A stretch of 64,000 nt of DNA, taken from NCBI RefSeq assembly GCF_988242995.1, contig NZ_OZ547043.1; one strand, given 5' to 3'. Positions within the stretch are counted from its first letter, which is position 1, and every line of letters begins with the position of its first letter. Under the pieces are notes generated by a model. That model saw only the letters and a list, made by a program, of their open reading frames with translations, was not told the DNA's origin and did no database searches. Made by a program: the position numbers and the translations under genes. Shown in pieces: positions 29,185 to 44,329 of this stretch.

Positions 29185-29790
29185 ATGACTATAAAAAATC
29201 TACCTGCCGACTATTTATTGGCTGCGCAACAGGGTGATATCGATAAAGTAAAAACCTGCCTTGCGCTGGGTGTCGATATTAATACCTGCGATCGTCAGGG
29301 GAAAACGGCAATTACGCTGGCAAGTTTATATCAGCAATATGCTTGCGTTCAGGCATTAATTGATGCCGGAGCAGATATTAATAAGCAAGATCAAATATGT
29401 TCAAATCCTTTTTTAATTAGCTGCCTGACCGGCGATTTAACCCTGTTACGGATTATTTTACCGGCTAAACCTGATCTTAATTGCGTCACCCGTTTTGGCG
29501 GTGTCGGCCTGACGCCTGCCTGTGAAAAAGGCCATTTAAGTATTGTAAAAGAGCTTTTGGCGCATACGGAGATTAACGTTAACCAGACCAACCATGTTGG
29601 CTGGACGCCGCTACTGGAAGCAATCGTGCTTAATGATGGCGGGATTAAACAGCAGGCGATTGTCCAGTTATTGCTGGAACACGGTGCCAGCCCGCACATG
29701 ACGGATAAATATGGCAAAACGCCGCTGGAACTGGCGCGGGAACGAGGCTTTGAAGAGATTGCTCAGTTGCTGATTGCGGCAGGTGCATAA
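29185..29790 (+). CDS. yahD: ankyrin-repeat protein
   Basis: 201 aa; repeated ankyrin signatures (GKTAITLASLYQQYACVQALIDAGADIN, GWTPLLEAIVLN...VQLLLEHGASPH, GKTPLELARERGFEEIAQLLIAAGA). Confidence 0.8.
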   Translation: MTIKNLPADYLLAAQQGDIDKVKTCLALGVDINTCDRQGKTAITLASLYQQYACVQALIDAGADINKQDQICSNPFLISCLTGDLTLLRIILPAKPDLNCVTRFGGVGLTPACEKGHLSIVKELLAHTEINVNQTNHVGWTPLLEAIVLNDGGIKQQAIVQLLLEHGASPHMTDKYGKTPLELARERGFEEIAQLLIAAGA

Positions 29791-29829
29791 ACCGGGAGGC
29801 TTGCTATCAATACACCAGAAAGACGGTGT

Positions 29830-30693
29830 GTGTGGGCGCTAACTGCGGATGCTGATTTTCTGGCGCAGCGGGGGCAAGGACAGGTTGAACAGGTCTTTGC
29901 CAGAGCGGTAAATATCGCACTTCCGGCCCGCCAGCAGTTGCTGACGCTGCTTTGTGAAGAGTACGACAATGCGCCAAACAGTTGTCGGTTGGCACTCACT
30001 CACTTTGATGGTCTGTTCCGGCATGGTGATAAGGTTCAGTTTGACGATCAAGGCATTACGGTTGGTCAACATCTTCATATAGAGATGAGTCATTGCCTGC
30101 GTTGGCTGTCCCCAACCTTGCAAATGACCGCTGTGAATTTTCACCTTATTGCCTGGCAACAGTGGCACGACATTATTCATCAGCACCTGGGGGAAAATGA
30201 AACCCTGTTTAATTATCGCGGCGATAATCCGTTTTATCAGGCGTTAAATAAAGAATTACATATTAAACGACGGGCAGTTATTCAGGAAGTAAACGATAAA
30301 CAAAATATCGCCTTAGCGGTCGCCAGTATGATGGGGTTAGGGATTGGCCTTACGCCATCAGCCGATGATTATTTAACAGGTCTGGCGCTTATTTTATTTA
30401 TTTCCGGACATCCGGCGGAAAAATACAAAGAGGAATTTTATATCGGTCTGCAACGCGGCAGAAATAATACCACGTTATTAAGTGCCATAACGCTGGAAGC
30501 CGCATTACAACAACGCTGCCGGGAAAATATTCATCATTTTATTCACGATATTATTTATGGTGTCCCTGGGAATTCAACCCAGGCAATAGAAAAAATTAAA
30601 CATATTGGCTCCAGTTCCGGCTGCGACATGCTGTATGGCATGGCCGATGGTTGTGCGCTGAGCCAAACCTACGGAGGGAATTATGTCAGTTAA
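29830..30693 (+). CDS. yahE: DUF2877-type protein (YlbF/AllH-like)
   Basis: 287-aa ORF; 3' end overlaps yahF start by 11 nt. Confidence 0.7.
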   Translation: MWALTADADFLAQRGQGQVEQVFARAVNIALPARQQLLTLLCEEYDNAPNSCRLALTHFDGLFRHGDKVQFDDQGITVGQHLHIEMSHCLRWLSPTLQMTAVNFHLIAWQQWHDIIHQHLGENETLFNYRGDNPFYQALNKELHIKRRAVIQEVNDKQNIALAVASMMGLGIGLTPSADDYLTGLALILFISGHPAEKYKEEFYIGLQRGRNNTTLLSAITLEAALQQRCRENIHHFIHDIIYGVPGNSTQAIEKIKHIGSSSGCDMLYGMADGCALSQTYGGNYVS

Positions 30694-32230
30694 AATAGTC
30701 ATTAAACCGAATACCTATTTTGATTCTGTCTCGCTGATGTCTATCTCCACGCGTGCAAATAAACTCGACGGCGTCGAGCAGGCATTTGTGGCGATGGCGA
30801 CCGAAATGAACAAAGGCGTGCTGAAGAATTTAGGACTGCTGACGCCGGAACTGGAGCAGGCGAAAAACGGTGACCTGATGATTGTCATCAATGGTAAATC
30901 GGGTGCGGACAACGAGCAGTTGCTGGTGGAGATTGAAGAACTGTTCAACACCAAAGCTCAAACTGGTTCACATGAAGCACGCTATGCCACTATTGCCAGC
31001 GCCAAAAAGCATATCCCGGAAAGTAACCTGGCGGTGATTTCGGTCAACGGTCTGTTTGCCGCTCGCGAAGCGCGTCAGGCGCTGCAAAACGATCTTAACG
31101 TGATGCTGTTTTCCGATAACGTCTCAGTTGAAGATGAACTGGCGCTCAAACAGTTGGCCCACGAAAAAGGGCTGCTGATGATGGGGCCAGACTGCGGTAC
31201 GGCGATTATCAACGGCGCGGCGCTCTGCTTTGGTAACGCCGTGCGTCGCGGCAACATCGGCATTGTTGGCGCATCCGGCACCGGTAGCCAGGAACTGAGC
31301 GTCCGCATTCATGAATTTGGCGGCGGCGTTTCGCAACTGATCGGCACCGGCGGGCGCGACCTGAGCGAGAAAATCGGCGGCCTGATGATGCTCGACGCCA
31401 TCGGGATGCTGGAAAACGATCCGCAAACTGAAATTATTGTGCTTATCTCCAAACCGCCTGCGCCTGCGGTGGCCCGCAAAGTGCTGGAACGCGCACGTGC
31501 CTGCCGCAAGCCGGTGGTGGTCTGCTTCCTCGGTCGTGGCGAAACGCCAGTGGATGAGCAGGGGCTACAGTTTGCTCGCGGCAGCAAAGAAGCGGCGCTG
31601 AAAGCGGTAATGCTCTCCGGCGTGAAACAGGAACATCTCGATCTGCATACCCTGAACCAGCCATTGATTGCTGACGTGCGCGCTCGCCTGAAGCCACAAC
31701 AGAAATACATTCGTGGCCTGTTCTGCGGCGGTACGCTGTGTGACGAAACCATGTTCGCGGTGATGGAAAAACACGGCGATGTCTACAGCAACATCCAGCC
31801 CGATCCTGAATTCCGCCTGAAAGATATCAACCGCAGCATCAAACACACCTTCCTCGACTTTGGTGATGACGACTTCACCAACGGCAAGCCGCATCCAATG
31901 ATTGACCCCACCAACCGCATCAGCCGGTTGATCGAAGAAGCGCGCGATCCAGAAGTGGCGGTGATCGTGATGGATTTTGTGCTCGGATTTGGATCGCATG
32001 AAGATCCGGTCGGTTCCACCATTGAGGCGATCAAAGAGGCGAAAGCGATCGCCGCTGCCGAAGGACGTGAGTTGATCATTCTCGCCTATGTGCTGGGTAC
32101 CGATCTTGATACGCCATCATTAGAACAACAAAGCCAGATGTTGCTTGATGCCGGAGTGATTCTGGCCAGCAGCAGCACCAATACCGGATTGCTGGCGCGT
32201 GAATTTATCTGCAAAGGGGAGGAAGCCTGA
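30683..32230 (+). CDS. yahF: FdrA-like protein (CoA-ligase/succinyl-CoA-synthetase alpha-like fold)
   Basis: 515-aa ORF; glycine-rich Rossmann-like stretches (GIVGASGTGSQE). Confidence 0.8.
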   Translation: MSVKIVIKPNTYFDSVSLMSISTRANKLDGVEQAFVAMATEMNKGVLKNLGLLTPELEQAKNGDLMIVINGKSGADNEQLLVEIEELFNTKAQTGSHEARYATIASAKKHIPESNLAVISVNGLFAAREARQALQNDLNVMLFSDNVSVEDELALKQLAHEKGLLMMGPDCGTAIINGAALCFGNAVRRGNIGIVGASGTGSQELSVRIHEFGGGVSQLIGTGGRDLSEKIGGLMMLDAIGMLENDPQTEIIVLISKPPAPAVARKVLERARACRKPVVVCFLGRGETPVDEQGLQFARGSKEAALKAVMLSGVKQEHLDLHTLNQPLIADVRARLKPQQKYIRGLFCGGTLCDETMFAVMEKHGDVYSNIQPDPEFRLKDINRSIKHTFLDFGDDDFTNGKPHPMIDPTNRISRLIEEARDPEVAVIVMDFVLGFGSHEDPVGSTIEAIKEAKAIAAAEGRELIILAYVLGTDLDTPSLEQQSQMLLDAGVILASSSTNTGLLAREFICKGEEA

Positions 32231-33648
32231 TGAGCCCGTCACTGTTTAGCCAACCGTTGAACGTTATTAACGTCGGTATCGCCATGTTTAGCGATGATCT
32301 GAAAAAGCAGCATGTAGAAGTGACCCAACTCGACTGGACGCCGCCGGGGCAGGGCAATATGCAGGTGGTGCAGGCGCTGGATAACATTGCCGATTCGCCG
32401 CTGGCAGACAAAATCGCCGCCGCTAACCAGCAGGCGCTGGAGCGCATTATCCAGTCGCATCCGGTGCTGATTGGTTTTGATCAGGCGATAAACGTGGTGC
32501 CGGGCATGACGCCGAAAACCATTCTTCACGCCGGGCCGCCGATCACCTGGGAAAAAATGTGCGGCGCGATGAAAGGCGCGGTCACCGGGGCGCTGGTGTT
32601 CGAAGGGCTGGCGAAAGATCTCGACGAGGCGGCTGAACTGGCGGCCTCCGGGGAGATCTCCTTCTCGCCGTGCCACGAACATGACTGCGTGGGATCGATG
32701 GCGGGTGTTACCTCGGCCTCGATGTTTATGCACATCGTAAAAAACAAAACCTACGGCAACATCGCTTACACCAATATGAGTGAGCAGATGGCGAAGATTT
32801 TGCGTATGGGCGCTAACGACCAGAGCGTGATTGACCGCCTCAACTGGATGCGCGATGTGCAGGGGCCAATGCTGCGCGACGCGATGAAAATTATCGGCGA
32901 AATCGATCTGCGCTTAATGCTGGCGCAAGCGCTGCATATGGGCGATGAATGCCATAACCGCAATAACGCCGGGACGACGCTGCTGATTCAGGCGCTGACG
33001 CCGGGGATTATTCAGGCGGGTTATTCCGTCGAGCAACAGCGCGAAGTGTTTGAGTTTGTCGCCAGCAGCGACTACTTCTCCGGCCCGACGTGGATGGCGA
33101 TGTGTAAAGCGGCGATGGATGCGGCGCACGGCATCGAATACAGCACCGTGGTCACCACCATGGCGCGTAACGGCGTCGAGTTCGGCCTGCGGGTCAGCGG
33201 CCTGCCGGGGCAATGGTTTACCGGCCCGGCGCAGCAGGTGATCGGCCCGATGTTTGCCGGTTATAAGCCGGAAGATTCGGGGCTGGATATCGGCGACAGC
33301 GCCATCACTGAAACCTACGGCATTGGCGGATTTGCCATGGCGACCGCGCCTGCTATCGTCGCGCTGGTGGGCGGTACGGTGGAAGAGGCTATCGATTTCT
33401 CCCGCCAGATGCGTGAAATCACTCTCGGTGAAAACCCCAACGTCACCATTCCGCTGCTCGGTTTTATGGGCGTGCCGTCGGCAATCGACATCACCCGCGT
33501 GGGCAGCAGCGGCATTCTGCCGGTGATCAACACCGCCATCGCCCATAAAGATGCGGGCGTCGGCATGATTGGTGCGGGCATTGTGCATCCACCATTCGCC
33601 TGCTTCGAGAAAGCCATTCTCGGCTGGTGCGAACGTTACGGCGTCTGA
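32230..33648 (+). CDS. yahG: DUF1116-type protein (YlbE/AllG-like)
   Basis: 472-aa ORF; ATG overlaps yahF TGA in a TGATG junction. Confidence 0.8.
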   Translation: MSPSLFSQPLNVINVGIAMFSDDLKKQHVEVTQLDWTPPGQGNMQVVQALDNIADSPLADKIAAANQQALERIIQSHPVLIGFDQAINVVPGMTPKTILHAGPPITWEKMCGAMKGAVTGALVFEGLAKDLDEAAELAASGEISFSPCHEHDCVGSMAGVTSASMFMHIVKNKTYGNIAYTNMSEQMAKILRMGANDQSVIDRLNWMRDVQGPMLRDAMKIIGEIDLRLMLAQALHMGDECHNRNNAGTTLLIQALTPGIIQAGYSVEQQREVFEFVASSDYFSGPTWMAMCKAAMDAAHGIEYSTVVTTMARNGVEFGLRVSGLPGQWFTGPAQQVIGPMFAGYKPEDSGLDIGDSAITETYGIGGFAMATAPAIVALVGGTVEEAIDFSRQMREITLGENPNVTIPLLGFMGVPSAIDITRVGSSGILPVINTAIAHKDAGVGMIGAGIVHPPFACFEKAILGWCERYGV

Positions 33649-33742
33649 CCTGCAAACGCACCTTACGATCCCTTCTCCCTTCTGGGGAGAGGGGCAACCT
33701 CACTCTCATAACCCCATCACCCACTGTAGCGGACATAACAAC

Positions 33743-34693
33743 ATGAAAGAACTTGTGGTCGTTGCCATTGGTGGCAACAGCATTATCAAAGATAACGCCA
33801 GCCAGTCGATTGAGCATCAGGCGGAGGCGGTGAAAGCCGTCGCCGATACGGTGCTGGAAATGCTGGCTTCCGATTACGACATTGTGCTGACCCACGGCAA
33901 CGGACCGCAGGTCGGTTTGGATTTACGCCGCGCGGAGATTGCCCACGAGCGCGAAGGGCTGCCCTTAACGCCGCTGGCGAACTGTGTGGCGGATACGCAA
34001 GGCGGCATTGGCTACTTGATCCAACAGGCGCTGAATAACCGACTGGCGCGTCACGGTGAGAAAAAAGCCGTCACCGTGGTGACTCAGGTGGAAGTGGATA
34101 AAAACGATCCGGGTTTTGCTCATCCCACCAAGCCCATCGGCGCATTCTTCAGTGAAAGCCAGCGTGACGAATTACAAAAGGCAAACCCTGACTGGCGTTT
34201 TGTTGAAGATGCCGGACGGGGCTATCGCCGCGTGGTCGCCTCGCCGGAACCGAAACGTATTGTCGAAGCACCTGCCATTAAGGCGCTGATCCAACAAGGT
34301 TTTGTGGTGATTGGCGCGGGCGGCGGTGGAATTCCGGTGGTGTGCAGTGAAGCGGGGGATTACCAAAGCGTGGACGCGGTTATCGACAAAGATCTCTCTA
34401 CCGCGCTATTGGCCCGTGAAATTCACGCCGACATTCTGGTGATCACCACCGGCGTCGAAAAAGTGTGTATTCACTTTGGCAAGCCGCAGCAGCAGGCGCT
34501 GGATCGGGTGGATATTGCCACCATGACCCGCTATATGCAGGAAGGGCATTTCCCGCCTGGCAGCATGTTGCCAAAAATCATCGCCAGCCTGACGTTCCTG
34601 GAGCAGGGCGGCAAAGAAGTGATTATCACCACGCCGGAATGCCTGCCTGCGGCGCTGCGCGGTGAAACAGGCACACATATTATTAAAACGTAA
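33743..34693 (+). CDS. yahI: carbamate kinase
   Basis: ORF 33569..34693; start set to MKELVVVAIGGNSI (ATG 33743); carbamate/amino-acid kinase signatures (LTHGNGPQVG, GGGGIPV). Confidence 0.85.
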   Translation: MKELVVVAIGGNSIIKDNASQSIEHQAEAVKAVADTVLEMLASDYDIVLTHGNGPQVGLDLRRAEIAHEREGLPLTPLANCVADTQGGIGYLIQQALNNRLARHGEKKAVTVVTQVEVDKNDPGFAHPTKPIGAFFSESQRDELQKANPDWRFVEDAGRGYRRVVASPEPKRIVEAPAIKALIQQGFVVIGAGGGGIPVVCSEAGDYQSVDAVIDKDLSTALLAREIHADILVITTGVEKVCIHFGKPQQQALDRVDIATMTRYMQEGHFPPGSMLPKIIASLTFLEQGGKEVIITTPECLPAALRGETGTHIIKT

Positions 34694-34702
34694 GGACGTA
34701 AG

Positions 34703-36085
34703 ATGAAAAAAAACAATAGCCGCCGTGAGTTTCTGAGCCAGAGCTGTAAGATGGTCACCGCCGCCGCGCTGTTTGGTACCTCTGTGCCGCTCGCCCATGC
34801 GGCAGTCTCTGGCACCCTAAACTGCGACGCGAATAACACCATGAAAATCACTGACCCGCACTACTATCTCGACAACGTGCTGCTGGAAACCGGTTTTGAC
34901 TACGAAAACGGTGTGGCGGTACAGACCCGCACGGCGCACCAGACCGTAGAGATTCAGAACGGCAAAATTGTTGCCCTGCGCGAGAACAAGCAGCATCCGG
35001 ACGCCACGCTGCCGCACTATGACGCTGGCGGTAAGCTGATGCTGCCCACCACCCGCGACATGCATATTCATCTCGACAAAACCTTTTACGGCGGGCCGTG
35101 GCGCTCGCTCAATCGCCCGGCAGGCACCACCATCCAGGACATGATCAAACTCGAGCAGAAAATGCTGCCGGAGCTGCAACCGTACACTCAGGAACGAGCG
35201 GAAAAACTGATCGATTTATTGCAGTCGAAAGGCACTACCATTGCCCGCAGCCACTGCAATATCGAACCGGTTTCCGGCCTGAAAAATCTGCAAAATTTGC
35301 AGGCGGTGCTGGCGCGACGTCAGGCGGGCTTCGAGTGTGAAATTGTCGCCTTCCCGCAGCACGGTTTGCTGCTGTCGAAATCGGAACCCTTAATGCGTGA
35401 AGCGATGCAGGCGGGGGCGCATTACGTCGGCGGTCTGGATCCGACCAGTGTTGATGGCGCGATGGAAAAATCCCTCGATACCATGTTCCAGATTGCGCTG
35501 GACTACGACAAAGGCGTTGATATTCACCTGCACGAAACCACTCCGGCAGGCGTGGCAGCCATCAATTATATGGTTGAAACGGTGGAGAAAACGCCGCAAC
35601 TGAAGGGCAAGCTGACCATCAGCCACGCCTTTGCGCTGGCAACGCTCAATGAGCAACAGGTAGATGAACTGGCGCACCGGATGGCGGCGCAGCAAATTTC
35701 TATCGCCTCGACGGTGCCGATTGGCACGCTGCATATGCCGCTCAAACAGTTGCACGACAAAGGCGTAAAAGTGATGACCGGCACCGACAGCGTTATCGAC
35801 CACTGGTCGCCTTACGGCCTGGGCGACATGCTGGAAAAAGCCAATCTGTACGCGCAGCTCTATATTCGTCCTAACGAACAGAACCTCTCCCGCTCGCTGT
35901 TTTTAGCCACTGGCGATGTATTGCCGCTCAACGAAAAAGGCGAGCGCGTGTGGCCCAAAGCGCAGGATGATGCCAGCTTTGTGCTGGTGGACGCCTCCTG
36001 TTCCGCCGAGGCGGTGGCGCGTATCTCGCCGAGAACGGCGACGTTCCATAAAGGGCAACTGGTGTGGGGGAGTGTGGCAGGTTGA
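34703..36085 (+). CDS. yahJ: amidohydrolase-superfamily deaminase with twin-arginine (Tat) signal peptide
   Basis: 460 aa; N-terminus MKKNNSRREFLSQSCKMVTAAALFGTSVPLAHAA (RR-x-FL plus AxA site); metal-binding HxH (MHIHLDKT). Confidence 0.85.
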   Translation: MKKNNSRREFLSQSCKMVTAAALFGTSVPLAHAAVSGTLNCDANNTMKITDPHYYLDNVLLETGFDYENGVAVQTRTAHQTVEIQNGKIVALRENKQHPDATLPHYDAGGKLMLPTTRDMHIHLDKTFYGGPWRSLNRPAGTTIQDMIKLEQKMLPELQPYTQERAEKLIDLLQSKGTTIARSHCNIEPVSGLKNLQNLQAVLARRQAGFECEIVAFPQHGLLLSKSEPLMREAMQAGAHYVGGLDPTSVDGAMEKSLDTMFQIALDYDKGVDIHLHETTPAGVAAINYMVETVEKTPQLKGKLTISHAFALATLNEQQVDELAHRMAAQQISIASTVPIGTLHMPLKQLHDKGVKVMTGTDSVIDHWSPYGLGDMLEKANLYAQLYIRPNEQNLSRSLFLATGDVLPLNEKGERVWPKAQDDASFVLVDASCSAEAVARISPRTATFHKGQLVWGSVAG

Positions 36086-36379
36086 TACGCATTTGAAACG
36101 CCTGCAATGGTGAATCGTAAGAGATTTAAAGCCCCAGGGAGTGGGGCGGGAATGGTTTGTTAATGAATGATCCTGAACTTTATAATCTCCCGGCATAATT
36201 TCCAGGGGATTATTTGAGAGAAATACACAAAAGTGAGTTTTAACAATATTTATCAAGCCATAAATGTGACCTGCTTCGGATAAAAAAGATTAAAAATAGA
36301 AAAACCAATGATACTCTTGCTGATGGTTATCAACAGTAATTAAGATGTGATTTTTTTCCGTAATCGCGAAAATATTCTC

Positions 36380-36790
36380 ATGACCATAAAAGAAAAAATC
36401 TCACAAAAATATCCCCATGCTTCCTTTTGTACTTTTGGCGATTCAGCAGCGTTGGCCGATCACCTCGCAACGTTGATTGCGACAGGTGTTAAAACAGCTT
36501 CCTGTGGTTCGCTGGCGGGATGTATTGAAGACAACGCATTTCCGATGATTGGTGAGTATAAGATTGTAGAAAATAGCCGTGGTGAGCCTGTCTGTGTTAT
36601 CAGAGTGATTGGCCTGCATTTACTGCGCTTTTCTGATGTCACCGCGGAGCTTGCCCGTAAGGAAGGTGAAGGTGACCTCAGTCTTGAATATTGGCGTAAT
36701 GAACACCGTCGTTTTTTCCAGGCAGAAGGATGCTATTCACCCGAAATGGACGTTATCTTTGAAGAATATGCCCTTATTGACGTTGTGTAG
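36380..36790 (+). CDS. ASCH-domain (PUA-like) protein
   Basis: ORF 36347..36790; start set to MTIKEK; FGDSAALADHLATLIATGVKTASCGS resembles ASCH N-terminal signature. Domain call from motif recall only. Confidence 0.55.
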   Translation: MTIKEKISQKYPHASFCTFGDSAALADHLATLIATGVKTASCGSLAGCIEDNAFPMIGEYKIVENSRGEPVCVIRVIGLHLLRFSDVTAELARKEGEGDLSLEYWRNEHRRFFQAEGCYSPEMDVIFEEYALIDVV

Positions 36791-37040
36791 ATAACTATTT
36801 TTCTACGCGAAATAAGCTCACAAACATAAAGTATCGCTAATTTTGTTTATTTTGCTGTTTTTTACGTGATGATTGTCACACTTATTGTTACTGCCCGTTT
36901 TGTCCATATTTATAACCAAATTTTTAATAGCTGCCTGAAATAGGGCTGTTTATTCTGCATAAAAATATTCGAAAATTCTTATTCTCTCCAGCGCGCTAAT
37001 TTGGGCGAACACTTCCTGACTACCCTGCAATGAGGCTGAA

Positions 37041-38027
37041 ATGATGAATAAACGTTTTGTTATCAATATGGTGTCTTCGCTGTTATTAGGCGCTGCGCTA
37101 ATTTCTGCGCCGCTCCAGGCAGCGGAAAAAGTCGTGGTGAATATCTCTAAAGTCGATGGTATGCCGTGGTTTAATCGCATGGGCGAAGGTGTGGTCGAGG
37201 CGGGTAAAGCCTTTGGTGTTAATGCGTCACAGGTGGGGCCTTCAAGTACTGATGCTCCGCAACAGGTTAAAATCATTGAGGATTTAATCGCCCGTAAGGT
37301 TAATGCAATTACAATTGTGCCAAACGATGCCAACGTGCTGGAACCGGTATTCAAAAAAGCGCGAGATGCCGGAATTGTGGTTCTGACCAACGAATCCCCC
37401 GGTCAGCCAAGTGCTAACTGGGATATCGAAATCATTGATAACGAAAAATTTGCCGCTGAATATGTTGAGCATATGGCGAAACGCATGGGTGGCAAGGGCG
37501 GCTATGTGATTTACGTGGGTAGTTTGACCGTGCCGCAGCATAACTTATGGGCTGACTTGCTGGTGAAATACCAGAAAGAGCATTACCCGGATATGCATGA
37601 AGTTACCCGCCGCATGCCGGTTGCCGAGAGTGTGGATGACTCACGTCGTACCACACTGGACCTCATGAAAACCTATCCTGACTTGAAAGCGGTTGTCTCC
37701 TTTGGTTCAAACGGTCCGATTGGCGCGGGACGTGCAGTGAAAGAGAAACGGGCGAAAAATAAAGTCGCAGTCTATGGCATGATGATCCCTTCACAGGCGG
37801 CATCACTGATTAAAAGTGGTGATATCACCGAAGGGATTACTTACGATCCGGCCTCTGCAGGTTACGCACTCGCGGCCGTCGCCAGCACGTTGCTGAAGGG
37901 TGAAGAGATCAAACCTGGATTAGAAATGGAGAATCTCGGTAAGGCCGACGTAGATATGGATAAGCGAATTATCCGTTTCCATAAGGTATTACTGGTCAAC
38001 AAAGACAATATCGACTCACTTTATTAA
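37041..38027 (+). CDS. periplasmic substrate-binding protein of a CUT2 (ribose/AI-2-type) ABC transporter
   Basis: 328 aa; signal peptide MMNKRFVINMVSSLLLGAALISAPLQAAEK; type-I PBP features. Confidence 0.8.
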   Translation: MMNKRFVINMVSSLLLGAALISAPLQAAEKVVVNISKVDGMPWFNRMGEGVVEAGKAFGVNASQVGPSSTDAPQQVKIIEDLIARKVNAITIVPNDANVLEPVFKKARDAGIVVLTNESPGQPSANWDIEIIDNEKFAAEYVEHMAKRMGGKGGYVIYVGSLTVPQHNLWADLLVKYQKEHYPDMHEVTRRMPVAESVDDSRRTTLDLMKTYPDLKAVVSFGSNGPIGAGRAVKEKRAKNKVAVYGMMIPSQAASLIKSGDITEGITYDPASAGYALAAVASTLLKGEEIKPGLEMENLGKADVDMDKRIIRFHKVLLVNKDNIDSLY

Positions 38028-38075
38028 TCCATTTCTTCGGGGCGAAAGCCCCGATTCTTATTGCCAGGGGATGCT

Positions 38076-39560
38076 ATGGAAACCTTCCTTTCCCTTCGTC
38101 ATATCAACAAAACGTTTCATGCCACGCGAGCGCTGCGCGATGTTTCTCTCGACTTTATGTCGGGTGAGGTGCACTGCCTTGCCGGGCAAAACGGCTGTGG
38201 TAAATCGACGTTGATTAAAATTATGTCCGGTGTTTATCGCCCGGATGAGGGGGCGGAAATTACGCTTGGTGGGAAAAACTGGTCAAAGCTGACACCCGCC
38301 GCTTCGGTGGCGCAGGGGATTCAGGTGATTTATCAGGACCTCTCTTTATTTCCTAACCTGAGTGTCTGGGAGAATATCGCCGTGAATCACTATCACCACG
38401 GTCTGTTTGTTAACCGCCGTCGTCTGCGTGAGGTGGCGCAGGCGGCAATGACCAGTATTAACGTCACATTGCCACTGGATACGCTCGTTTCTGAGCTTTC
38501 AATTGCCCGCTGTCAGCTGGTGGCAATTTGCCGTGCACTGGCGCAGGACGCACGGTTGATCGTGATGGATGAACCAACCGCTTCGCTGACCCATCAGGAA
38601 GTGCAAGGGTTATTACAGGTGGTGCATCAATTGCGGGAACGCGGGATCTGCGTGGTCTTCGTCAGTCATCGTCTGGAAGAAGTGATGGAAGTTTCCGACC
38701 GTATTTCAGTGCTGAAAGATGGTGAGCTGGTCGGGACCTTTCCGGCCGCAGAGATGACCACAAAACAACTCAGTTTTCTGATGACCGGCCAGGAGTTCGA
38801 ATATCAGGTACGAGAGTTGTGGCAGGGAAAATCCAGCACCCCGGTGCTGGAGGTGCGTAATTTAAGTCGTCATGGGGAATATCAAAATATTAACTTGCGG
38901 GTGGAAGCGGGCGAAGTGGTGTCGATTGTTGGCCTGCTTGGTGCGGGGCGCACGGAATTATGTCTGAGTCTGTTTGGTATGACCCGACCGGATGCTGGTG
39001 AGATCCTCATCAACGGTCAGCCGGTTACACTGCATAGTAACCAGGACGCCATCCGCCACGGTATTGGTTATGTTTCGGAAGATCGCATGTCGCGCGGTTT
39101 GGTGATGGCGCAATCTATTGAAGACAACATCATTAGCACTGTTTTTCACAAGGTAAAAGATCGCTTCGGCTTTCTGAGTGAAGCTAAAGTGCGTGACCTG
39201 GTGGACAGGCTAATCAAGGCATTGACCATCAAAGTCTCTGACCCACATCTCCCGGTGAATACGCTTTCCGGGGGTAACGCGCAGCGAGTATCGATCGCCA
39301 AATGGCTGGCGATTGGGCCACGACTGTTGATTCTCGATAGCCCGACAGTCGGTGTTGATATCGCCAACAAAGCAGGAATATACGGCATTATCAGCGATCT
39401 GGCGGCTCATGGCATTGCGGTATTGATGATCTGCGATGAAATTGAAGAAGCGTGGTATCAAAGCCACCGGATTTTGGTAATGCAGAAAGGTCAGATCACC
39501 CATAGCTTCCTGCCTGACAGCAGTTCTCAGGCCAGGATTGCGGAGGTGGTAAATGGCTGA
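38076..39560 (+). CDS. ABC transporter ATPase with duplicated nucleotide-binding domains (RbsA-like)
   Basis: ORF 38061..39560; Walker A GQNGCGKST, signature LSGGNAQRV, Walker B LLILDSPT; start set to METFLSL. Confidence 0.8.
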   Translation: METFLSLRHINKTFHATRALRDVSLDFMSGEVHCLAGQNGCGKSTLIKIMSGVYRPDEGAEITLGGKNWSKLTPAASVAQGIQVIYQDLSLFPNLSVWENIAVNHYHHGLFVNRRRLREVAQAAMTSINVTLPLDTLVSELSIARCQLVAICRALAQDARLIVMDEPTASLTHQEVQGLLQVVHQLRERGICVVFVSHRLEEVMEVSDRISVLKDGELVGTFPAAEMTTKQLSFLMTGQEFEYQVRELWQGKSSTPVLEVRNLSRHGEYQNINLRVEAGEVVSIVGLLGAGRTELCLSLFGMTRPDAGEILINGQPVTLHSNQDAIRHGIGYVSEDRMSRGLVMAQSIEDNIISTVFHKVKDRFGFLSEAKVRDLVDRLIKALTIKVSDPHLPVNTLSGGNAQRVSIAKWLAIGPRLLILDSPTVGVDIANKAGIYGIISDLAAHGIAVLMICDEIEEAWYQSHRILVMQKGQITHSFLPDSSSQARIAEVVNG

Positions 39561-40524
39561 ACTGAAAAAACGTCATGAATTCTGGCTGGCATTACTGATT
39601 GTGGGGCTGTTTGTTGGCCTTGCCTGGCGCAGCGACGAGTTTCTGACATTCGGTAATTTGTACGATCTCGCCAATAACTATGCCATGTTGACTATTCTCG
39701 CCTGTGGTTTGTTTGTGGTGTTAATTTCCGGTGGGATTGATATTTCGTTTCCGGCAATGACCATCATTGCGCAATACGGCATGGTGCTGTTGCTGCAAAA
39801 AATTGGTGGCAACTTTGCTGTCGCGTTTGCACTGGCGGGCGGCATCGGCATTTTACTTGGCTTAATAAACGCCTTACTGGTTAATCGCCTACGGGTGCCG
39901 TCTATCATCATCACCATTTCGACGCTGAATATTTTCTATGGCCTGCTGTTATGGTTGAGTAAAGGTGTGTGGCTGTACGACTTTCCGCCGTGGTTTGAGC
40001 AGGGGGTAATGTTGTTCAAGTACACCGATGCTGACGGCTATGACTATGGCCTTGGTCTGCCGCTGATCGCCATGATTACGGTGGTGCTGCTAACAGCGTT
40101 TATCATGAATTTCACCAGTGTAGGGCGCAAAATTTATGCCCTTGGCGGGAACCGTGAATCAGCCAGTCGCATCGGCTTTAGCGTGCTGAAACTGCAACTT
40201 TTCGTTTACGGCTATATGGGATTGATGTCTGGTGCTGCGGGTGTAGTGCAGTCGTGGACGGTGATGACTGTCGCCCCCGATTCTCTTCTGGGTTATGAGC
40301 TGACAGTACTGGCTGCGGTGGTGCTTGGCGGCACTAGTTTGCTCGGCGGGCGCGGCACGTTAACCGGTACTTTGCTCGGCGTGGTGTTGTTGGCAGTGAT
40401 GCAAAACGGGCTAAATTTATTGGGAGTCTCGTCTTACTGGCAAACATTGATCACCGGCATCATCATCGTTGCCAGCATTAGTGCCACGGCGTGGAGTCAG
40501 CATCAGAACCGGAGTCTGCTATGA
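39553..40524 (+). CDS. ABC transporter permease (RbsC-like)
   Basis: 323-aa polytopic ORF; start overlaps ATPase stop by 8 nt. Confidence 0.8.
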   Translation: MAELKKRHEFWLALLIVGLFVGLAWRSDEFLTFGNLYDLANNYAMLTILACGLFVVLISGGIDISFPAMTIIAQYGMVLLLQKIGGNFAVAFALAGGIGILLGLINALLVNRLRVPSIIITISTLNIFYGLLLWLSKGVWLYDFPPWFEQGVMLFKYTDADGYDYGLGLPLIAMITVVLLTAFIMNFTSVGRKIYALGGNRESASRIGFSVLKLQLFVYGYMGLMSGAAGVVQSWTVMTVAPDSLLGYELTVLAAVVLGGTSLLGGRGTLTGTLLGVVLLAVMQNGLNLLGVSSYWQTLITGIIIVASISATAWSQHQNRSLL

Positions 40525-41477
40525 AAAAATCGTGGCGTAACAACGTTGAGTTTTACTTGATCGGCCTGCTGGTGCTAACTGTTGCAGCCTTCAGCATTAC
40601 TATGCCGGAGATTTTCTGGTCGATAAGTAATTTCCAGTCCGTCGCTTCGCAAATGCCCGTGCTGGGCATTCTGGCGTTGGCTATGGCGGTGACCATGCTT
40701 TGCGGTGGCATTAACTTGTCAATTATTGCCACTGCTAACGCCTGTTCACTGGTAATGGCGTGGGTGGCGACTCAGTATCCACCGGGTATTGCTACGGTTG
40801 TCGCTACGCTGCTGGCGGGCGCTGGCGCGGCGGTGATAATCGGTTTATGTAACGGCGTATTGATTGCTGGTATTCGAGTGTCGCCAATTCTTGCAACGCT
40901 TGGGATGATGACGTTGCTCAAAGGGGTAAATATTCTGGTGACAGGCGGTAGCGCCATTGCCAATTATCCCTCATGGGTGCTGTGGTTGAATCATGCGCAA
41001 TGGTTCGGTATTCCGCTACCGATGTGGTTGTTTGCCGCAGTGGCACTGGGGCTGTGGATATTGCTGGAGAAAACGCCGCTCGGTAAAGCCATTTATCTGA
41101 TTGGTTCTAACGAACGAGCAACACTTTACTCCGGTATTAACACTCGTCGGGTGCTGATATGGGTGTATGTCATTTCCGCCTTACTTTGTGCGGTAGCGGC
41201 ATTTTTGATGATGTCGAAACTCAACTCGGCTAAGGCCTCTTATGGCGAATCGTACTTGCTGGTGTCAATCCTCGCGGCAGTACTCGGCGGGGTTAATCCG
41301 GACGGCGGCAGCGGGCGGATAATTGGTATGGTGCTGGCGCTGTTTCTTCTGCAAATTATTGAAAGCGGCTTCAATATTCTCGGTATAAGCCCCTACCTGA
41401 CGATGGCCTTATGGGGAACGTTGCTGCTCTGTTTCATTCAGGCTCGCGGCATGTTGGGGCTGGATCGGGTGGTTTAA
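40521..41477 (+). CDS. ABC transporter permease (RbsC-like), second copy
   Basis: ORF 40491..41477; start set to MKKSWRNN (ATG 40521) forming an ATGA overlap with the upstream stop. Confidence 0.8.
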   Translation: MKKSWRNNVEFYLIGLLVLTVAAFSITMPEIFWSISNFQSVASQMPVLGILALAMAVTMLCGGINLSIIATANACSLVMAWVATQYPPGIATVVATLLAGAGAAVIIGLCNGVLIAGIRVSPILATLGMMTLLKGVNILVTGGSAIANYPSWVLWLNHAQWFGIPLPMWLFAAVALGLWILLEKTPLGKAIYLIGSNERATLYSGINTRRVLIWVYVISALLCAVAAFLMMSKLNSAKASYGESYLLVSILAAVLGGVNPDGGSGRIIGMVLALFLLQIIESGFNILGISPYLTMALWGTLLLCFIQARGMLGLDRVV

Positions 41478-41563
41478 ATATTGGCTATATTCAATGGACG
41501 CGTTTTGCCGCGATGACATATCAGGCATCGCCAAATACACATAGCTAATCAGGAGTAAACACA

Positions 41564-42613
41564 ATGAAGATCAAAGCTGTTGGTGCATATTCCGCTAAAC
41601 AACCGCTGGAACCGATGGATATTACCAGGCGTGAACCGGGACCGCATGATGTCAAAATTGAAATCGCTTACTGTGGCGTCTGCCATTCCGATCTCCACCA
41701 GGTCCGTTCCGAGTGGGCGGGGACGGTTTACCCCTGCGTGCCGGGTCATGAAATTGTGGGGCGTGTGGTAGCCGTTGGTGATCAGGTAGAAAAACATGCG
41801 CCGGGCGATCTGGTTGGTGTCGGCTGTATTGTCGACAGTTGTAAACATTGCGAAGAGTGTGAAGACGGGCTGGAAAACTACTGTGATCACATGACCGGCA
41901 CCTATAACTCGCCGACGCCGGACGAACCGGGCCATACTCTGGGCGGCTACTCACAACAGATCGTCGTTCATGAGCGATATGTTCTGCGTATTCGTCACCC
42001 GCAAGAGCAGCTGGCGGCGGTGGCACCTTTGTTGTGTGCAGGGATCACCACGTATTCGCCGCTACGTCACTGGCAGGTCGGTCCGGGTAAAAAAGTGGGC
42101 GTGGTCGGCATCGGCGGTCTGGGACATATGGGGATTAAGCTGGCCCACGCGATGGGGGCGCATGTGGTGGCATTTACCACTTCTGAGTCAAAACGCGAAG
42201 CGGCAAAAGCCCTGGGGGCCGATGAAGTTGTTAACTCACGCAATGCCGATGAGATGGCGGCTCATGTGAAGAGTTTCGATTTCATTTTGAATACAGTAGC
42301 TGCGCCACATAATCTCGACGATTTTACCACCTTGCTGAAGCGTGATGGCACCATGACGCTGGTTGGTGCGCCTGCGACACCGCATAAATCACCGGAAGTT
42401 TTCAACCTGATCATGAAACGCCGTGCGATAGCCGGTTCTATGATTGGCGGCATTCCAGAAACACAGGAGATGCTCGATTTTTGCGCCGAACATGGCATCG
42501 TGGCTGATATAGAGATGATTCGGGCCGATCAAATTAATGAAGCCTATGAGCGAATGCTGCGTGGTGATGTGAAATATCGTTTTGTTATCGATAATCGCAC
42601 ACTAACAGACTGA
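41564..42613 (+). CDS. yahK: NADPH-dependent aldehyde reductase, zinc-dependent MDR/ADH family
   Basis: 349 aa; GVCHSDLH and GHEIVGRV zinc motifs, GIGGLGHMG NAD(P)-binding motif. Confidence 0.9.
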   Translation: MKIKAVGAYSAKQPLEPMDITRREPGPHDVKIEIAYCGVCHSDLHQVRSEWAGTVYPCVPGHEIVGRVVAVGDQVEKHAPGDLVGVGCIVDSCKHCEECEDGLENYCDHMTGTYNSPTPDEPGHTLGGYSQQIVVHERYVLRIRHPQEQLAAVAPLLCAGITTYSPLRHWQVGPGKKVGVVGIGGLGHMGIKLAHAMGAHVVAFTTSESKREAAKALGADEVVNSRNADEMAAHVKSFDFILNTVAAPHNLDDFTTLLKRDGTMTLVGAPATPHKSPEVFNLIMKRRAIAGSMIGGIPETQEMLDFCAEHGIVADIEMIRADQINEAYERMLRGDVKYRFVIDNRTLTD

Positions 42614-42648
42614 AAAAATTAATAAATATCCTGTGGTTTAACATATTA

Positions 42649-42690
42649 ATTTCGCTCTCCACTTAACTTTTTAGTTAAGGAGAGCGAAAT
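42649..42690. repeat. long inverted repeat downstream of yahK (12-bp outer stem plus inner 5-bp stem, T-rich loop)
   Basis: atttcgctctcc...ggagagcgaaat with nested ttaac/gttaa; no clear U-tract. Confidence 0.35.
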
Positions 42691-42855
42691 AATATCAAAG
42701 TAGCAGTAAAACCTATAACGTAAATTCAAATTGTTAAATTAACTCCCTCCAGGACACAATACTTCACACGTTAGTTATGAGCGATTTCTGATAGTGCATG
42801 GTTTAATCAGGGCTTTATTATCTGCGACGTTTATTTTTATTTAAGAGAGATCGCG

Positions 42856-43671
42856 ATGATATCATTAAAAGCTCCGCACAATAATTTGATGCCATATACG
42901 CAACAAAGCATACTTAATACAGTAAAAAACAATCAGTTACCAGAGGATATCAAAAGCTCCCTGGTTTCCTGTGTCGATATATTCAAGGTTTTGATTAAAC
43001 AATATTATGATTATCCTTATGATTGTCGTGATGATTTAGTCGATGACGACAAACTCATTCATCTCATGGCTGCCGTACGAGACTGTGAGTGGTCAGACGA
43101 TAACGCACTCACCATAAATGTGCAGTTTAATGATTTCCCAGGATTTTATGACTGGATGGATTACCCTGATCACCCGGTTAAGTTTGTTTTTCGCATACTT
43201 GAAAATCAAAAAGGGACAGTTTGGGTATATGACCAGGATGATGCGTTTCTTGATATTAAAGCAAATGTGCAGGCTGGACGCTTTACCGGGCTTAAGAAAT
43301 TAGTGCAGTTTATCGATTCAGTGCGAACAGATTGCAAATGTATTCTTCTTGAACACCATATGCCTTTGCTGAGACTTTTCCCTAAAGGGAAAGAGTGTAT
43401 GCATGTGGAAAAATGGCTTCGCGAAATGTCGTCTATTCCGGAGACCGACGCACCCATTAAGCAGGCGCTTGCGCATGGATTATTATTACACTTAAAAAAT
43501 ATCTACCCTGTTTTTCCTGAATCACTGGTGATGTTATTGCTCTCTGTTCTGGACGTAAAAACATACAGAGATGATGCGCGATTAAATCAATGGATATCTA
43601 ATAGAGTGCAGGAATTAGGTGACAGATATTATCCTGTAAATAAGCACGTTAAAATCCGCTACACTCTTTAG
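42856..43671 (+). CDS. yahL: uncharacterised protein
   Basis: 271-aa ORF; no recognisable domain; name from recalled K-12 synteny. Confidence 0.65.
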   Translation: MISLKAPHNNLMPYTQQSILNTVKNNQLPEDIKSSLVSCVDIFKVLIKQYYDYPYDCRDDLVDDDKLIHLMAAVRDCEWSDDNALTINVQFNDFPGFYDWMDYPDHPVKFVFRILENQKGTVWVYDQDDAFLDIKANVQAGRFTGLKKLVQFIDSVRTDCKCILLEHHMPLLRLFPKGKECMHVEKWLREMSSIPETDAPIKQALAHGLLLHLKNIYPVFPESLVMLLLSVLDVKTYRDDARLNQWISNRVQELGDRYYPVNKHVKIRYTL

Positions 43672-43897
43672 TTCAGAAAGGGTTCCACCTGCGAGTTGTT
43701 ATTCCACCAGAGAGTGAATCGCAAAGCAGGTGATCATTTCATCTGTATATCCGTATGCCAAATGGCATTCCACCGCCTTTTTCGCCGATATTTTGTTGTG
43801 ATCGGCGACACTTCGCTTAAAAAAGCATCAGCAGTGGTTTCGCAGCTATACGGTGTATAAAAAATGATCTCATGCAGATGTTTTGTGAATGTGTGGG

Positions 43898-43926
43898 TTG
43901 ACATTCATATGAAAAAAATCATAATT
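43898..43926 (+). promoter_or_regulatory. sigma70-like promoter (TTGACA, 16-17 nt spacer, CATAAT) upstream of yahM
   Basis: ttgaca 43898-43903, cataat 43920-43925. Confidence 0.25.
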
Positions 43927-44083
43927 CCATCATGTTTGTGTGGGGTCTTTTCTGTATCTTACGCATCGCACTCAAGCCTGACAGAAAATATGCTGTAAGG
44001 CTCATATCAAAAACCGCCATTAGCTCATCAGGAAGAGCAGACGACAACCAGGATTGTTGTATGGTACGGGGTTCGAGGCCTCG

Positions 44084-44329
44084 ATGGCGGTCCAACTTTT
44101 CATAACTCTTCTGAATCAGATCCCCTTATTATCATCCCTGCAAAGTGGAACATTGCCATTGTTTGGCTATTCAGGACGGGTCAGAGCAATGAAAAAAGCC
44201 CACACAGGGGAGAGTGGGCTGAAATGGGAAGCTAAAGACTCAAGTAAACTTATCGGAAATAAGGACCACGCATTACGGGGGCTATCATCGCCGATGGTCG
44301 GGATTCGGCAAATCAGGTTGATTACGTAG
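44084..44329 (+). CDS. yahM: small uncharacterised protein
   Basis: ORF 44054..44329; start set to MAVQLF; weak evidence (ORF plus synteny). Confidence 0.4.
   Translation: MAVQLFITLLNQIPLLSSLQSGTLPLFGYSGRVRAMKKAHTGESGLKWEAKDSSKLIGNKDHALRGLSSPMVGIRQIRLIT

What the first reader, a model, noticed from the sequence alone, without database searches (positions are those of the whole stretch)
36086..41563. ~5.4 kb ASCH + CUT2 ABC-transporter block between yahJ and yahK
From recalled K-12 gene order yahJ is directly followed by yahK; here an ASCH-domain gene and a four-gene ABC importer (binding protein, dual-domain ATPase, two permeases, with 8-nt and 4-nt start/stop overlaps) lie between them. This looks like a strain-variable accessory insertion, and its position next to the yah catabolic cluster suggests it may import that cluster's substrate. 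The binding protein is ribose/AI-2-like, so a sugar or nucleoside-like ligand is plausible but unproven.
Basis: partly seen in the sequence, partly recalled or inferred. Interest (0 to 1): 0.5.

Follow-up and report, generated by a model that had tools for sequence, protein, structure and literature searches.

The report
Known Aau D-ribulose/L-arabinose ABC importer
The block between yahJ and yahK is the already published Aau sugar importer of E. coli (O-island 17, controlled by the arabinose regulator AraC, preferring D-ribulose) plus a solitary ASCH gene, and K-12 lacks it because it was deleted there, not because it was inserted here.

Summary
An ASCH gene (36380-36790) and a four-gene CUT2 ABC importer (37044-41477) lie between yahJ and yahK, and K-12-like genomes lack them.

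The importer is not new. Its binding protein is 326/328 identical to PDB 9I1M, AauA of enterohaemorrhagic E. coli. This is the Accessory L-arabinose Uptake system (Z0415-9, O-island 17), published in 2024 and 2025. It is AraC- and L-arabinose-induced and binds D-ribulose at about 2 µM. All six ligand-contact residues are kept and all four genes are intact.

- **Link to the yah genes.** None of the 78 non-Escherichia loci carrying the operon has yah genes nearby. 26 have araC adjacent. A conserved CRP plus AraC I1-I2-type operator lies upstream of aauA (36865-36929).
- **Insertion.** K-12-like and ST131 genomes keep 70-bp ASCH and 72-bp aauD gene fragments at this site. A cryptic-clade Escherichia keeps ASCH with only the aauD fragment, and a lineage about 90% identical keeps aau in synteny. 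The K-12 state is therefore a two-step deletion.

The full block is in 2212 of 5426 complete E. coli genomes. Verdict: already known, low interest.

The parts
34703..36085 (+). yahJ (amidohydrolase family), the left flank. It is not part of the system.
   Evidence: ORF. NCBIfam NF005312 amidohydrolase, 716 bits. RefSeq names it yahJ on 99.2%-identical DNA.
36131..36147 (+). Stem-loop GCCCCAGGGAGTGGGGC just after yahJ. It is the last sequence shared with the deletion allele before the ASCH deletion.
   Evidence: 17/17 identical in the K-12-like locus L002. No T-run follows it, so it is not a canonical terminator.
36380..36790 (+). Solitary ASCH-domain gene (136 aa, YhfF/COG4405-like) of unknown function. 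It is a separate unit from the transporter.
   Evidence: Pfam PF04266, E = 8e-22. PDB relatives 1t62 and 3s9x. 134/136 identical to the O157:H7 copy. Homologues in Yersinia, Pseudenterobacter and Kosakonia lie in unrelated contexts.
36743..36812 (+). Segment retained as a 70-bp scar (ASCH 3' end plus 22 bp) in genomes that lack the block.
   Evidence: blastn against K-12-like L002, 94% identity. About 2815 E. coli genomes match only this part of the ASCH segment.
36865..36880 (+). Predicted CRP-cAMP site, CGTGATGATTGTCACA.
   Evidence: A GTGAnnnnnnTCACA block is conserved at the same position upstream of aauA orthologues in Klebsiella, Franconibacter, Mangrovibacter and Aeromonas. Coordinates. 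Binding was not tested.
36892..36929 (+). Predicted AraC operator. Half-site I1 is TGCCCGTTTTGTCCATA (36892-36908), the spacer is TTTA, and the weak half-site I2 is TAACCAAATTTTTAATA (36913-36929).
   Evidence: The orthologue consensus AGCnTTTTTATCCATA-TTTn-TAGCAGnATATTACCTG resembles araI1-I2, whose sequence I confirmed between araC and araB. The tandem pattern occurs once in the 64-kb window. It is upstream of aauA in 35 of 59 Aau-type loci and 0 of 19 Rbl-type loci. It is identical in a ~90%-diverged Escherichia.
36951..36956 (+). Candidate -10 hexamer TATTCT of the aau promoter. It would give a 5' UTR of roughly 80 nt.
   Evidence: TTTAYTCT is conserved in the E. coli, Klebsiella and Franconibacter upstream sequences of the eight-genus alignment. 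Its spacing after I2 fits an AraC class II-like activator. The generic promoter scan did not call it. This is inference only.
37044..38027 (+). aauA, the periplasmic binding protein (D-ribulose strongly preferred over L-arabinose).
   Evidence: 326/328 identical to PDB 9I1M. K37, W43, E118, H167, E196 and S223 are all present. 325/327 identical to O157:H7.
38037..38054 (+). GC-rich hairpin TCGGGGCGAAAGCCCCGA followed by TTCTTATT, between aauA and aauB. It is a probable partial terminator or mRNA stabiliser that raises binding-protein output.
   Evidence: Terminator-like site. The role is inferred.
38076..39560 (+). aauB, the tandem-domain ATPase (494 aa). It is intact here.
   Evidence: Walker A GQNGCGKS and Walker B LIVMDE in the first half. 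The second half is degenerate (GAGRT, LLILDSP) and carries the LSGGNAQR signature. 489/494 identical to O157:H7, which has TAG at codon 87.
39553..40524 (+). aauC, permease 1 (323 aa). Its start overlaps the end of aauB by 8 nt.
   Evidence: NCBIfam AraH/RbsC-type hits below cut-off. 321/323 identical to O157:H7.
40521..41477 (+). aauD, permease 2 (318 aa). Its start overlaps the end of aauC by 4 nt.
   Evidence: NCBIfam RbsC/LsrD-type hits below cut-off. 316/318 identical to O157:H7.
41406..41477 (+). Last 23 codons plus stop of aauD. They are retained as a scar upstream of yahK in genomes that lack the block.
   Evidence: blastn against L002, 97% identity. About 2820 genomes match only this part. 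PGAP annotates it as an incomplete gene missing its N-terminus. It encodes the C-terminus conserved in K. pneumoniae AauD. Escherichia sp. E2593 also has it.
41564..42613 (+). yahK (NADPH-dependent aldehyde reductase), the right flank. It lies 86 bp after aauD with no predicted terminator between them.
   Evidence: ORF. RefSeq name. Terminator scan.

Best explanation
The four-gene operon is an intact orthologue of AauABCD, the Accessory L-arabinose Uptake ABC importer of O-island 17 in enterohaemorrhagic E. coli.

**Proposed mechanism.**
1. With L-arabinose present, AraC activates the aau promoter. I predict it does so through an I1-I2 operator at 36892-36929, with CRP-cAMP bound at 36865-36880.
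2. The periplasmic protein AauA captures alpha-D-ribulose with micromolar affinity and L-arabinose only weakly.
3. AauA docks on the AauC/AauD heterodimeric permease.
4. The tandem ATPase AauB drives import. Only its first nucleotide site is consensus.
5. Imported D-ribulose is phosphorylated by the L-ribulokinase AraB and enters the pentose phosphate pathway.

**What is shown and what is inferred.** Steps 2 to 5 were shown experimentally by others in strain ZAP193. They are transferred here by near-identity. The operator in step 1 is my prediction.

**The neighbours.** The upstream ASCH gene is an independent solitary gene of unknown function. Neither unit serves the yah cluster.

**Origin.** The block is an old resident of this Escherichia locus. 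K-12-like and many B2 genomes lost it in two deletions, aau first and ASCH second, leaving gene fragments.
For: **Identity with Aau.**
- AauA is 326/328 identical to PDB 9I1M, and all six ribulose-contact residues are present.
- AauB, AauC and AauD are 99% identical to the O157:H7 proteins, in the same gene order and at the same yahJ-ASCH-aau-yahK position.

**Published function.**
- KD is 1.98 µM for D-ribulose against 598 µM for L-arabinose. A crystal structure with ribulose exists. The reporter loses L-arabinose induction in an araC deletion mutant and is not induced by D-ribulose in wild type, and catabolism depends on AraB. The mouse-gut competition defect is reported in PMC11127945 and cited in PMC12307932.

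- 26 of 59 Aau-type loci in other genera have an AraC-family gene adjacent. The representative scores 492 bits against an AraC cut-off of 208. Several also have araB and araA.
- The araI-like tandem operator is upstream of aauA in 35 of 59 Aau-type loci and 0 of 19 Rbl-type loci. That is 36 hits in 21 kb, against 14 hits in 2.79 Mb elsewhere, and a single hit in the 64-kb window.
- The promoter and 5' UTR are nearly invariant, even in a ~90%-diverged Escherichia.

**Deletion polarity.**
Against: - No experiment was done on this strain.
- The window's AauA differs from 9I1M at two non-contact residues (D201 versus V, E297 versus Q).
- The predicted I2 half-site is weak, matching araI2 at only about 6 of 17 positions. 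The generic sigma-70 scan did not call the promoter.
- A relaxed half-site search alone is not enriched in the window: 131 matches against 163 expected.
- Only one representative genome of each other Escherichia species was scanned. An older horizontal acquisition, or introgression between lineages, cannot be excluded. The closest non-Escherichia orthologues (92% identical at protein level, in Klebsiella and Franconibacter) lie in a different context.
Confidence: 0.92

Rival explanations
1. One reading: the importer supplies the substrate of the neighbouring yah catabolic cluster (yahD to yahJ).
For: Only adjacency and shared orientation. No strong terminator is predicted after yahJ.
Against: - Published regulation is strictly by AraC and L-arabinose, and the ligand is D-ribulose.
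- None of the 78 non-Escherichia loci has yahJ or yahK within 9 kb.
- One Escherichia lineage keeps aau but lacks yahB to yahJ. Another keeps the yah cluster but lacks aau. About 2800 E. coli genomes have the yah genes without aau.
- The yah proteins match AllH, AllF, AllG, carbamate-kinase and amidohydrolase families. That points to a carbamoyl or nitrogen-compound pathway rather than a sugar pathway (inference).
- A 294-bp gap, the ASCH gene and a 253-bp promoter region separate yahJ from aauA.
Confidence: 0.03
2. The block is a recent horizontally acquired island inserted into a K-12-like ancestral yahJ-yahK junction. This is the 'O-island' reading used in the literature and by the first reader.
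For: - It is absent from K-12 and from the GTDB representative genomes of most other Escherichia species.
- The papers call it horizontally acquired.
- The operon occurs in other contexts in other genera.
- The ASCH and promoter stretch has low GC, 40-42%.
Against: - Genomes without the block keep in-frame 3' fragments of ASCH and aauD.
- The aauD fragment encodes the C-terminus conserved in Klebsiella AauD.
- The deletion allele has the same architecture in phylogroup A and in B2 ST131, at 97% identity without gaps. A cryptic-clade Escherichia that still has an intact ASCH gene has a similar junction.
- A ~90%-diverged Escherichia has aau-yahK in synteny, diverged as much as its flanks: 89.9% against 88-93%.
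- No integrase, IS element, adjacent tRNA gene or flanking repeats were found.
- The aau genes have about 50% GC, ordinary for E. coli.
Confidence: 0.07
3. It is an autoinducer-2 (Lsr-type) importer, as the RefSeq product name of the binding protein suggests.
For: RefSeq names the protein 'autoinducer 2 ABC transporter substrate-binding protein'. LsrB structures are distant PDB hits, E about 1e-24.
Against: - The NCBIfam LsrB equivalog scores 111 bits against a cut-off of 384. LsrA, LsrC and LsrD are also far below cut-off.
- No lsrK, lsrR, lsrF or lsrG gene is adjacent.
- The crystal structure holds D-ribulose.
Confidence: 0.01
4. The locus is decaying and non-functional in this strain, as in the EDL933/TUV93-0 lineage.
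For: O157:H7 RM8376 has an in-frame TAG at codon 87 of aauB. The papers report the same SNP in TUV93-0. The locus has been lost outright in over half of E. coli genomes.
Against: All five ORFs are full-length here, with conserved motifs and contact residues. The promoter and operator are intact.
Confidence: 0.04

Closest known systems
Aau (AauABCD; Z0415-Z0419, O-island 17) of enterohaemorrhagic E. coli. Cottam et al., Nat Commun 2024 (PMC11127945) and 2025 (PMC12307932); PDB 9I1M.
   Same: Same genes, same order and same chromosomal position. Protein identity is 99% or higher. All six D-ribulose contact residues are present. The promoter is nearly identical, including the predicted AraC operator.
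   Different: aauB is intact here, whereas the EDL933/TUV93-0-type O157:H7 copy carries a premature stop at codon 87. There are two conservative differences in AauA away from the pocket. The host strain belongs to a lineage only about 97.4% identical to most E. coli across this region.
Rbl (RblABCD-RblK-RblI) D-ribulose utilisation locus of Citrobacter rodentium.
   Same: A CUT2 importer with the same four-gene architecture and the same preferred sugar. The Rbl-type loci recovered here are about 59-64% identical in all four proteins.
   Different: Rbl carries its own FGGY pentulose kinase and a KpsF-like isomerase directly downstream. It is induced by D-ribulose, not by AraC and arabinose. It has no araI-like operator in 0 of 19 loci. 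The window has no kinase or isomerase next to aauD.
Canonical E. coli L-arabinose systems (AraFGH ABC importer, AraE, araBAD) under AraC.
   Same: Shares the regulator. It has a predicted I1-I2 direct-repeat operator plus a CRP site, like the araBAD promoter. The ATPase and permease 1 score best against AraG and AraH among NCBIfam models.
   Different: Scores are well below the AraG and AraH equivalog cut-offs (426 against 689, and 155 against 378). There are two different permeases instead of one. The binding protein is of the RhaS/LsrB type, not the AraF type, and it prefers D-ribulose.
LsrACDB (AI-2) and RhaSTPQ (rhamnose) CUT2 importers with two permeases.
   Same: The architecture is binding protein, tandem ATPase and two distinct permeases. 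The binding-protein fold family is the same.
   Different: Equivalog scores fail: RhaS 137 against 342, and LsrB 111 against 384. The ligand and the regulator differ.

Membership tests
Aau (AauABCD) accessory L-arabinose / D-ribulose importer | Binding protein orthologous to AauA (PDB 9I1M) | tested here: met
   326/328 identical over the full length, E = 1e-213.
Aau (AauABCD) accessory L-arabinose / D-ribulose importer | D-ribulose-coordinating residues K37, W43, E118, H167, E196, S223 | tested here: met
   All six are present at the same positions. The residue list comes from PMC12307932.
Aau (AauABCD) accessory L-arabinose / D-ribulose importer | Operon of binding protein, tandem ATPase and two permeases at the OI-17 position between yahJ/ASCH and yahK | tested here: met
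   Same order and same flanks as O157:H7 RM8376. Protein identity 98.5-99.4%.
Aau (AauABCD) accessory L-arabinose / D-ribulose importer | Induction by L-arabinose that requires AraC | not testable with these tools
   Sequence support only. There is an araI-like I1-I2 operator at 36892-36929 and a CRP-like site, both conserved across genera. The promoter is about 97% identical to that of O157:H7 RM8376, the serotype of the strains used for the published reporter.
Aau (AauABCD) accessory L-arabinose / D-ribulose importer | High-affinity D-ribulose binding and transport, with AraB-dependent catabolism | not testable with these tools
   Transferred from published ITC, crystallography and genetics on a 99.4%-identical protein.
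Rbl D-ribulose utilisation locus (C. rodentium type) | Dedicated FGGY D-ribulokinase (rblK) and KpsF-like isomerase (rblI) downstream of the transporter | tested here: not met
   yahK follows aauD after 86 bp. rblK and rblI are found only in the loci of the ~60%-identity group.
Lsr autoinducer-2 importer | LsrB, LsrA, LsrC and LsrD equivalog scores, with lsrK/lsrR/lsrFG neighbours | tested here: not met
   LsrB 111 bits against a cut-off of 384, LsrA 388 against 586, LsrC 114 against 388, LsrD 146 against 500. No lsr accessory genes are present.
Mobile genomic island (insertion) | Integrase or transposase, tRNA or repeat-flanked boundaries, and an empty site without gene fragments in genomes that lack it | tested here: not met
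   No such ORFs in the block. No tRNA gene adjoins it, and the only ARAGORN call is 2.5 kb away and unsupported by Rfam. There are no flanking direct or inverted repeats. The 'empty' sites contain ASCH and aauD fragments.

The most novel reading that the evidence does not exclude
'O-island 17' is not an EHEC-specific acquisition. It is an ancestral Escherichia locus held as a very old presence/absence polymorphism.

- The same, or nearly the same, aau deletion junction is found in a cryptic-clade Escherichia, in phylogroup A (K-12-like) and in B2 ST131.
- A second deletion removing ASCH was then superimposed in E. coli.
- The intact allele persists in about 41% of E. coli genomes and in a lineage about 90% identical.

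This would recast the reported association of Aau with LEE-positive strains as differential retention, or recombinational exchange of two ancient alleles, rather than gain.
Probability: 0.55. Interest if true: 0.3.

Novelty: already known. Interest (0 to 1): 0.14.

Why it matters
The system matters biologically. [quoted passage not shown] That is already published, so the finding adds no new kind of system.

This analysis adds three modest points:
- **A concrete regulatory prediction.** There is a testable CRP plus AraC I1-I2 operator upstream of aauA.
- **Comparative context.** In Providencia, Budviciaceae and Pasteurellaceae the same transporter family sits beside araC and araBA. Its membership of the arabinose regulon is therefore old, not an EHEC innovation.
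- **Origin.** The K-12 arrangement is a two-step deletion scar, which qualifies the 'horizontally acquired island' label.

The RefSeq product name 'autoinducer 2 ABC transporter substrate-binding protein' is misleading for this protein.

Tried and rejected
- **Literature search on gene names.** yahJ + yahK + 'ABC transporter' found nothing. The search for PDB 3D02 also found nothing. The link to the literature came only from the PDB sequence hit 9I1M.
- **Relaxed AraC half-site search.** AGCN7TCCATA with up to 2 mismatches gave 131 hits in the window against 163 expected. It is uninformative on its own. I replaced it with cross-genus alignment and a tandem-site pattern with an Rbl negative control.
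- **Global alignment of the K-12 spacer to the block.** Cheap gap extension scattered the alignment meaninglessly. I used local alignments instead.
- **Generic promoter and terminator scan.** It was not enriched over shuffles and did not call the aau promoter.
- **Rfam.** No family reaches its gathering score in 35500-42000.
- **Island hallmarks.** No tRNA gene, IS element, integrase or flanking repeats were found.
- **ASCH gene context.** In Yersinia, Pseudenterobacter and Kosakonia there is no conserved neighbour, so no functional inference was possible.
- **Steps I skipped.** I did not predict structures, because an experimental structure of a 99.4%-identical protein exists. I ran no further search on YahK to type E. 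albertii and E. fergusonii junctions.

Full report
**1. Observation**

- yahJ at 34703-36085
- an ASCH ORF ending at 36790 (RefSeq-type start at 36380)
- a binding protein at 37041/37044-38027
- a tandem-domain ATPase, most likely ATG 38076-39560
- two permeases at 39553-40524 and 40521-41477
- yahK at 41564-42613

The 8-nt and 4-nt overlaps are real (ATGGCTGA and ATGA). Pfam confirms the ASCH domain. NCBIfam places the transporter among CUT2-type systems but below every equivalog cut-off. RefSeq records of near-identical DNA annotate the same genes and name the flanks yahJ and yahK. K-12-like genomes have yahJ followed by yahK across a 376-bp spacer.

**2. Identity**

The binding protein is 326/328 identical to PDB 9I1M. 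A literature search shows this is AauA of enterohaemorrhagic E. coli. Two papers characterise the system: PMC11127945 (2024) and PMC12307932 (2025).

Their main results are these:
- Z0415-Z0419 on O-island 17 form the Accessory L-arabinose Uptake system.
- The promoter is induced only by L-arabinose and is silent in an araC deletion mutant.
- The locus gives a large competitive advantage in the mouse gut.
- AauA binds D-ribulose with KD 1.98 µM, against 598 µM for L-arabinose.
- The crystal structure holds alpha-D-ribulose, contacted by K37, W43, E118, H167, E196 and S223.
- Imported D-ribulose is phosphorylated by AraB.

In the window all six contact residues are present. AauB, AauC and AauD are 99% identical to the O157:H7 proteins. 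The window's aauB is intact. O157:H7 RM8376 carries TAG at codon 87, the same SNP the authors report for TUV93-0. AauB has a consensus first nucleotide-binding domain and a degenerate second one. From general knowledge, this is usual for CUT2 ATPases.

**3. Independent comparative evidence**

A scan of one genome per species found the operon in 80 loci. Protein identity of the binding protein falls into three groups:
- 90-92% in Klebsiella pneumoniae, Franconibacter and Mangrovibacter
- 65-87% in Symbiopectobacterium, Aeromonas, Yersinia, Providencia, Budviciaceae, Pasteurellaceae and Vibrio
- about 60% in a group that carries a pentulose kinase and a KpsF-like isomerase downstream, which is the published Rbl type

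None of the 78 non-Escherichia loci has yahJ, yahK or ASCH within 9 kb. By contrast, 26 of the 59 Aau-type loci have an AraC-family gene adjacent. The representative scores 492 bits against the AraC cut-off of 208. Several of these loci also have araB and araA.

Aligning the regions upstream of aauA from eight genera shows two conserved blocks. One is a CRP-like GTGAnnnnnnTCACA. The other is AGCnTTTTTATCCATA-TTTn-TAGCAGnATATTACCTG. The second resembles araI1-I2, whose sequence I confirmed lies between araC and araB in 5384 E. coli genomes.

A tandem-site pattern gave these counts:
- upstream of aauA in 35 of 59 Aau-type loci
- upstream of aauA in 0 of 19 Rbl-type loci
- 36 hits in 21 kb of upstream sequence, against 14 hits in 2.79 Mb elsewhere
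- exactly one hit in the 64-kb window, at 36892-36929

From the CRP site to the start codon, the sequence is almost invariant even in an Escherichia that is otherwise only about 90% identical. The sequence further upstream has diverged. The published papers do not describe the operator. It is a prediction, not a demonstration.

**4. No link to the yah cluster**

- The adjacency is peculiar to Escherichia.
- The two units occur separately. One lineage has aau without yahB to yahJ. Another has the yah genes without aau. So do about 2800 E. coli genomes.
- The yah proteins match the AllH, AllF and AllG families plus a carbamate kinase and an amidohydrolase. I infer that this indicates a carbamoyl or nitrogen-compound pathway.

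**5. Insertion or deletion?**

The full transporter block is in 2212 of 5426 complete genomes, and so is the full ASCH segment. About 2820 further genomes match only the last 72 bp of aauD, and about 2815 match only a 70-bp piece spanning the ASCH 3' end.

The evidence that these are deletion scars is as follows:
- In a K-12-like genome and in ST131 strain ZH063, the fragments sit in a 376-bp spacer of identical architecture, 97% identical without gaps.
- PGAP annotates the aauD piece as a gene missing its N-terminus.
- The fragment encodes the C-terminus conserved in Klebsiella AauD.
- Escherichia sp. E2593 has yahJ, an intact ASCH gene, the aauD fragment and yahK. Its junction lies within about 10 bp of the K-12 junction.
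- A genome labelled E. coli but only about 90% identical (L032) has aauABCD-yahK-yahL in synteny. Its divergence there equals that of the flanks. It has a different deletion that removed yahB to yahJ and the 5' part of ASCH.
- No integrase, IS element, adjacent tRNA gene or flanking repeats are present. The aau genes have ordinary GC content of about 50%.

The simplest history is an ancestral order yahJ-ASCH-aauABCD-yahK, then loss of aau, then loss of ASCH. K-12 therefore carries a deletion. This window does not carry an insertion.

An older acquisition at the base of the genus cannot be excluded. Neither can exchange of alleles between lineages. The representative genomes of the other named Escherichia species did not yield the operon.

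**6. The ASCH gene**

It is a 136-aa YhfF/COG4405-like protein. Gaps of 294 bp and 253 bp separate it from its neighbours. Its homologues in other genera are solitary genes in unrelated contexts. It always accompanies aau in E. coli complete genomes. That is explained by the deletion history, not by shared function. Its function remains unknown.

**7. Verdict**

The finding is real and correctly described, but it is a published, structurally and genetically characterised system. Novelty: already known. Interest: low.

Noticed in passing
L001 7080-8564 (O157:H7 RM8376), equivalent to window 38076-39560: The O157:H7 copy of aauB has an in-frame TAG at codon 87, the Q-loop glutamine, and RefSeq flags it as a pseudogene. 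The window copy is intact. The same SNP (nt 259) is reported for TUV93-0 in PMC11127945.
   Followed up: yes
window 36876-37043: From the CRP and AraC sites through an ~80-nt 5' UTR to the aauA start, the sequence is about 98% conserved in an Escherichia that is only ~90% identical overall. The 85 bp upstream are far more diverged. The long conserved leader could hold a further regulatory element, such as an sRNA target.
   Followed up: partly
window 44014-44094 (+): ARAGORN calls a tRNA-Ser(GGA) between yahL and yahM/yahN. Rfam finds no tRNA there even at E <= 1. It is probably a false positive or a degenerate tRNA-like remnant.
   Followed up: partly
window 30750-36000, compared with 36000-37250 and 42250-44000: Composition is a mosaic. 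The yahE-yahJ cluster is 53-62% GC, the ASCH gene and aau promoter are 40-42%, the aau genes are about 50%, and the yahL region is 35-41%. The yah cluster itself looks compositionally foreign.
   Followed up: no
L032 (NZ_JAATUR010000022.1, 'E. coli' SCPM-O-B-8794): This genome is labelled E. coli but is only 88-93% identical to the window across about 18 kb, so it belongs to a divergent Escherichia lineage. It lacks the segment equivalent to window 27462-36690 (yahB to yahJ plus the ASCH 5' part) while keeping aau-yahK-yahL.
   Followed up: partly
L088 3265-9681 (Escherichia sp. E2593), equivalent to window 29830-36085: Precomputed Pfam hits name YahE, FdrA and YahG as AllH, AllF and AllG family proteins. 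They sit next to a carbamate kinase (YahI) and an amidohydrolase (YahJ). The yah cluster looks like a paralogue of the allantoin-branch carbamoyl-transfer module.
   Followed up: no
L004 (SFEK01000152.1, MAG 'Bacteroidales bacterium'): A 4.7-kb contig binned as Bacteroidales is 98.8% identical to window 36781-41528. It is almost certainly E. coli contamination of the bin.
   Followed up: partly
window 37044-38027 and RefSeq records H1-H13: RefSeq names AauA 'autoinducer 2 ABC transporter substrate-binding protein', although it scores 111 bits against the LsrB cut-off of 384. The product name is misleading.
   Followed up: yes
L042, L047, L049, L051-L054, L057-L061, L080 (Pasteurellaceae): The Pasteurellaceae loci read araC, aauABCD-like operon, then an FGGY kinase that matches only XylB weakly (99.6 bits against a cut-off of 380). 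One locus also has araA. This may be a distinct pentulose pathway under an AraC-like regulator.
   Followed up: no
query window 34000-43700 against E. coli genomes: 116 matching places lie on plasmids, and 108 records match at only 80-90% identity. I did not examine which part of the query they cover. At least one plasmid record is an F'-type episome of XL1-Blue that carries the chromosomal scar.
   Followed up: no
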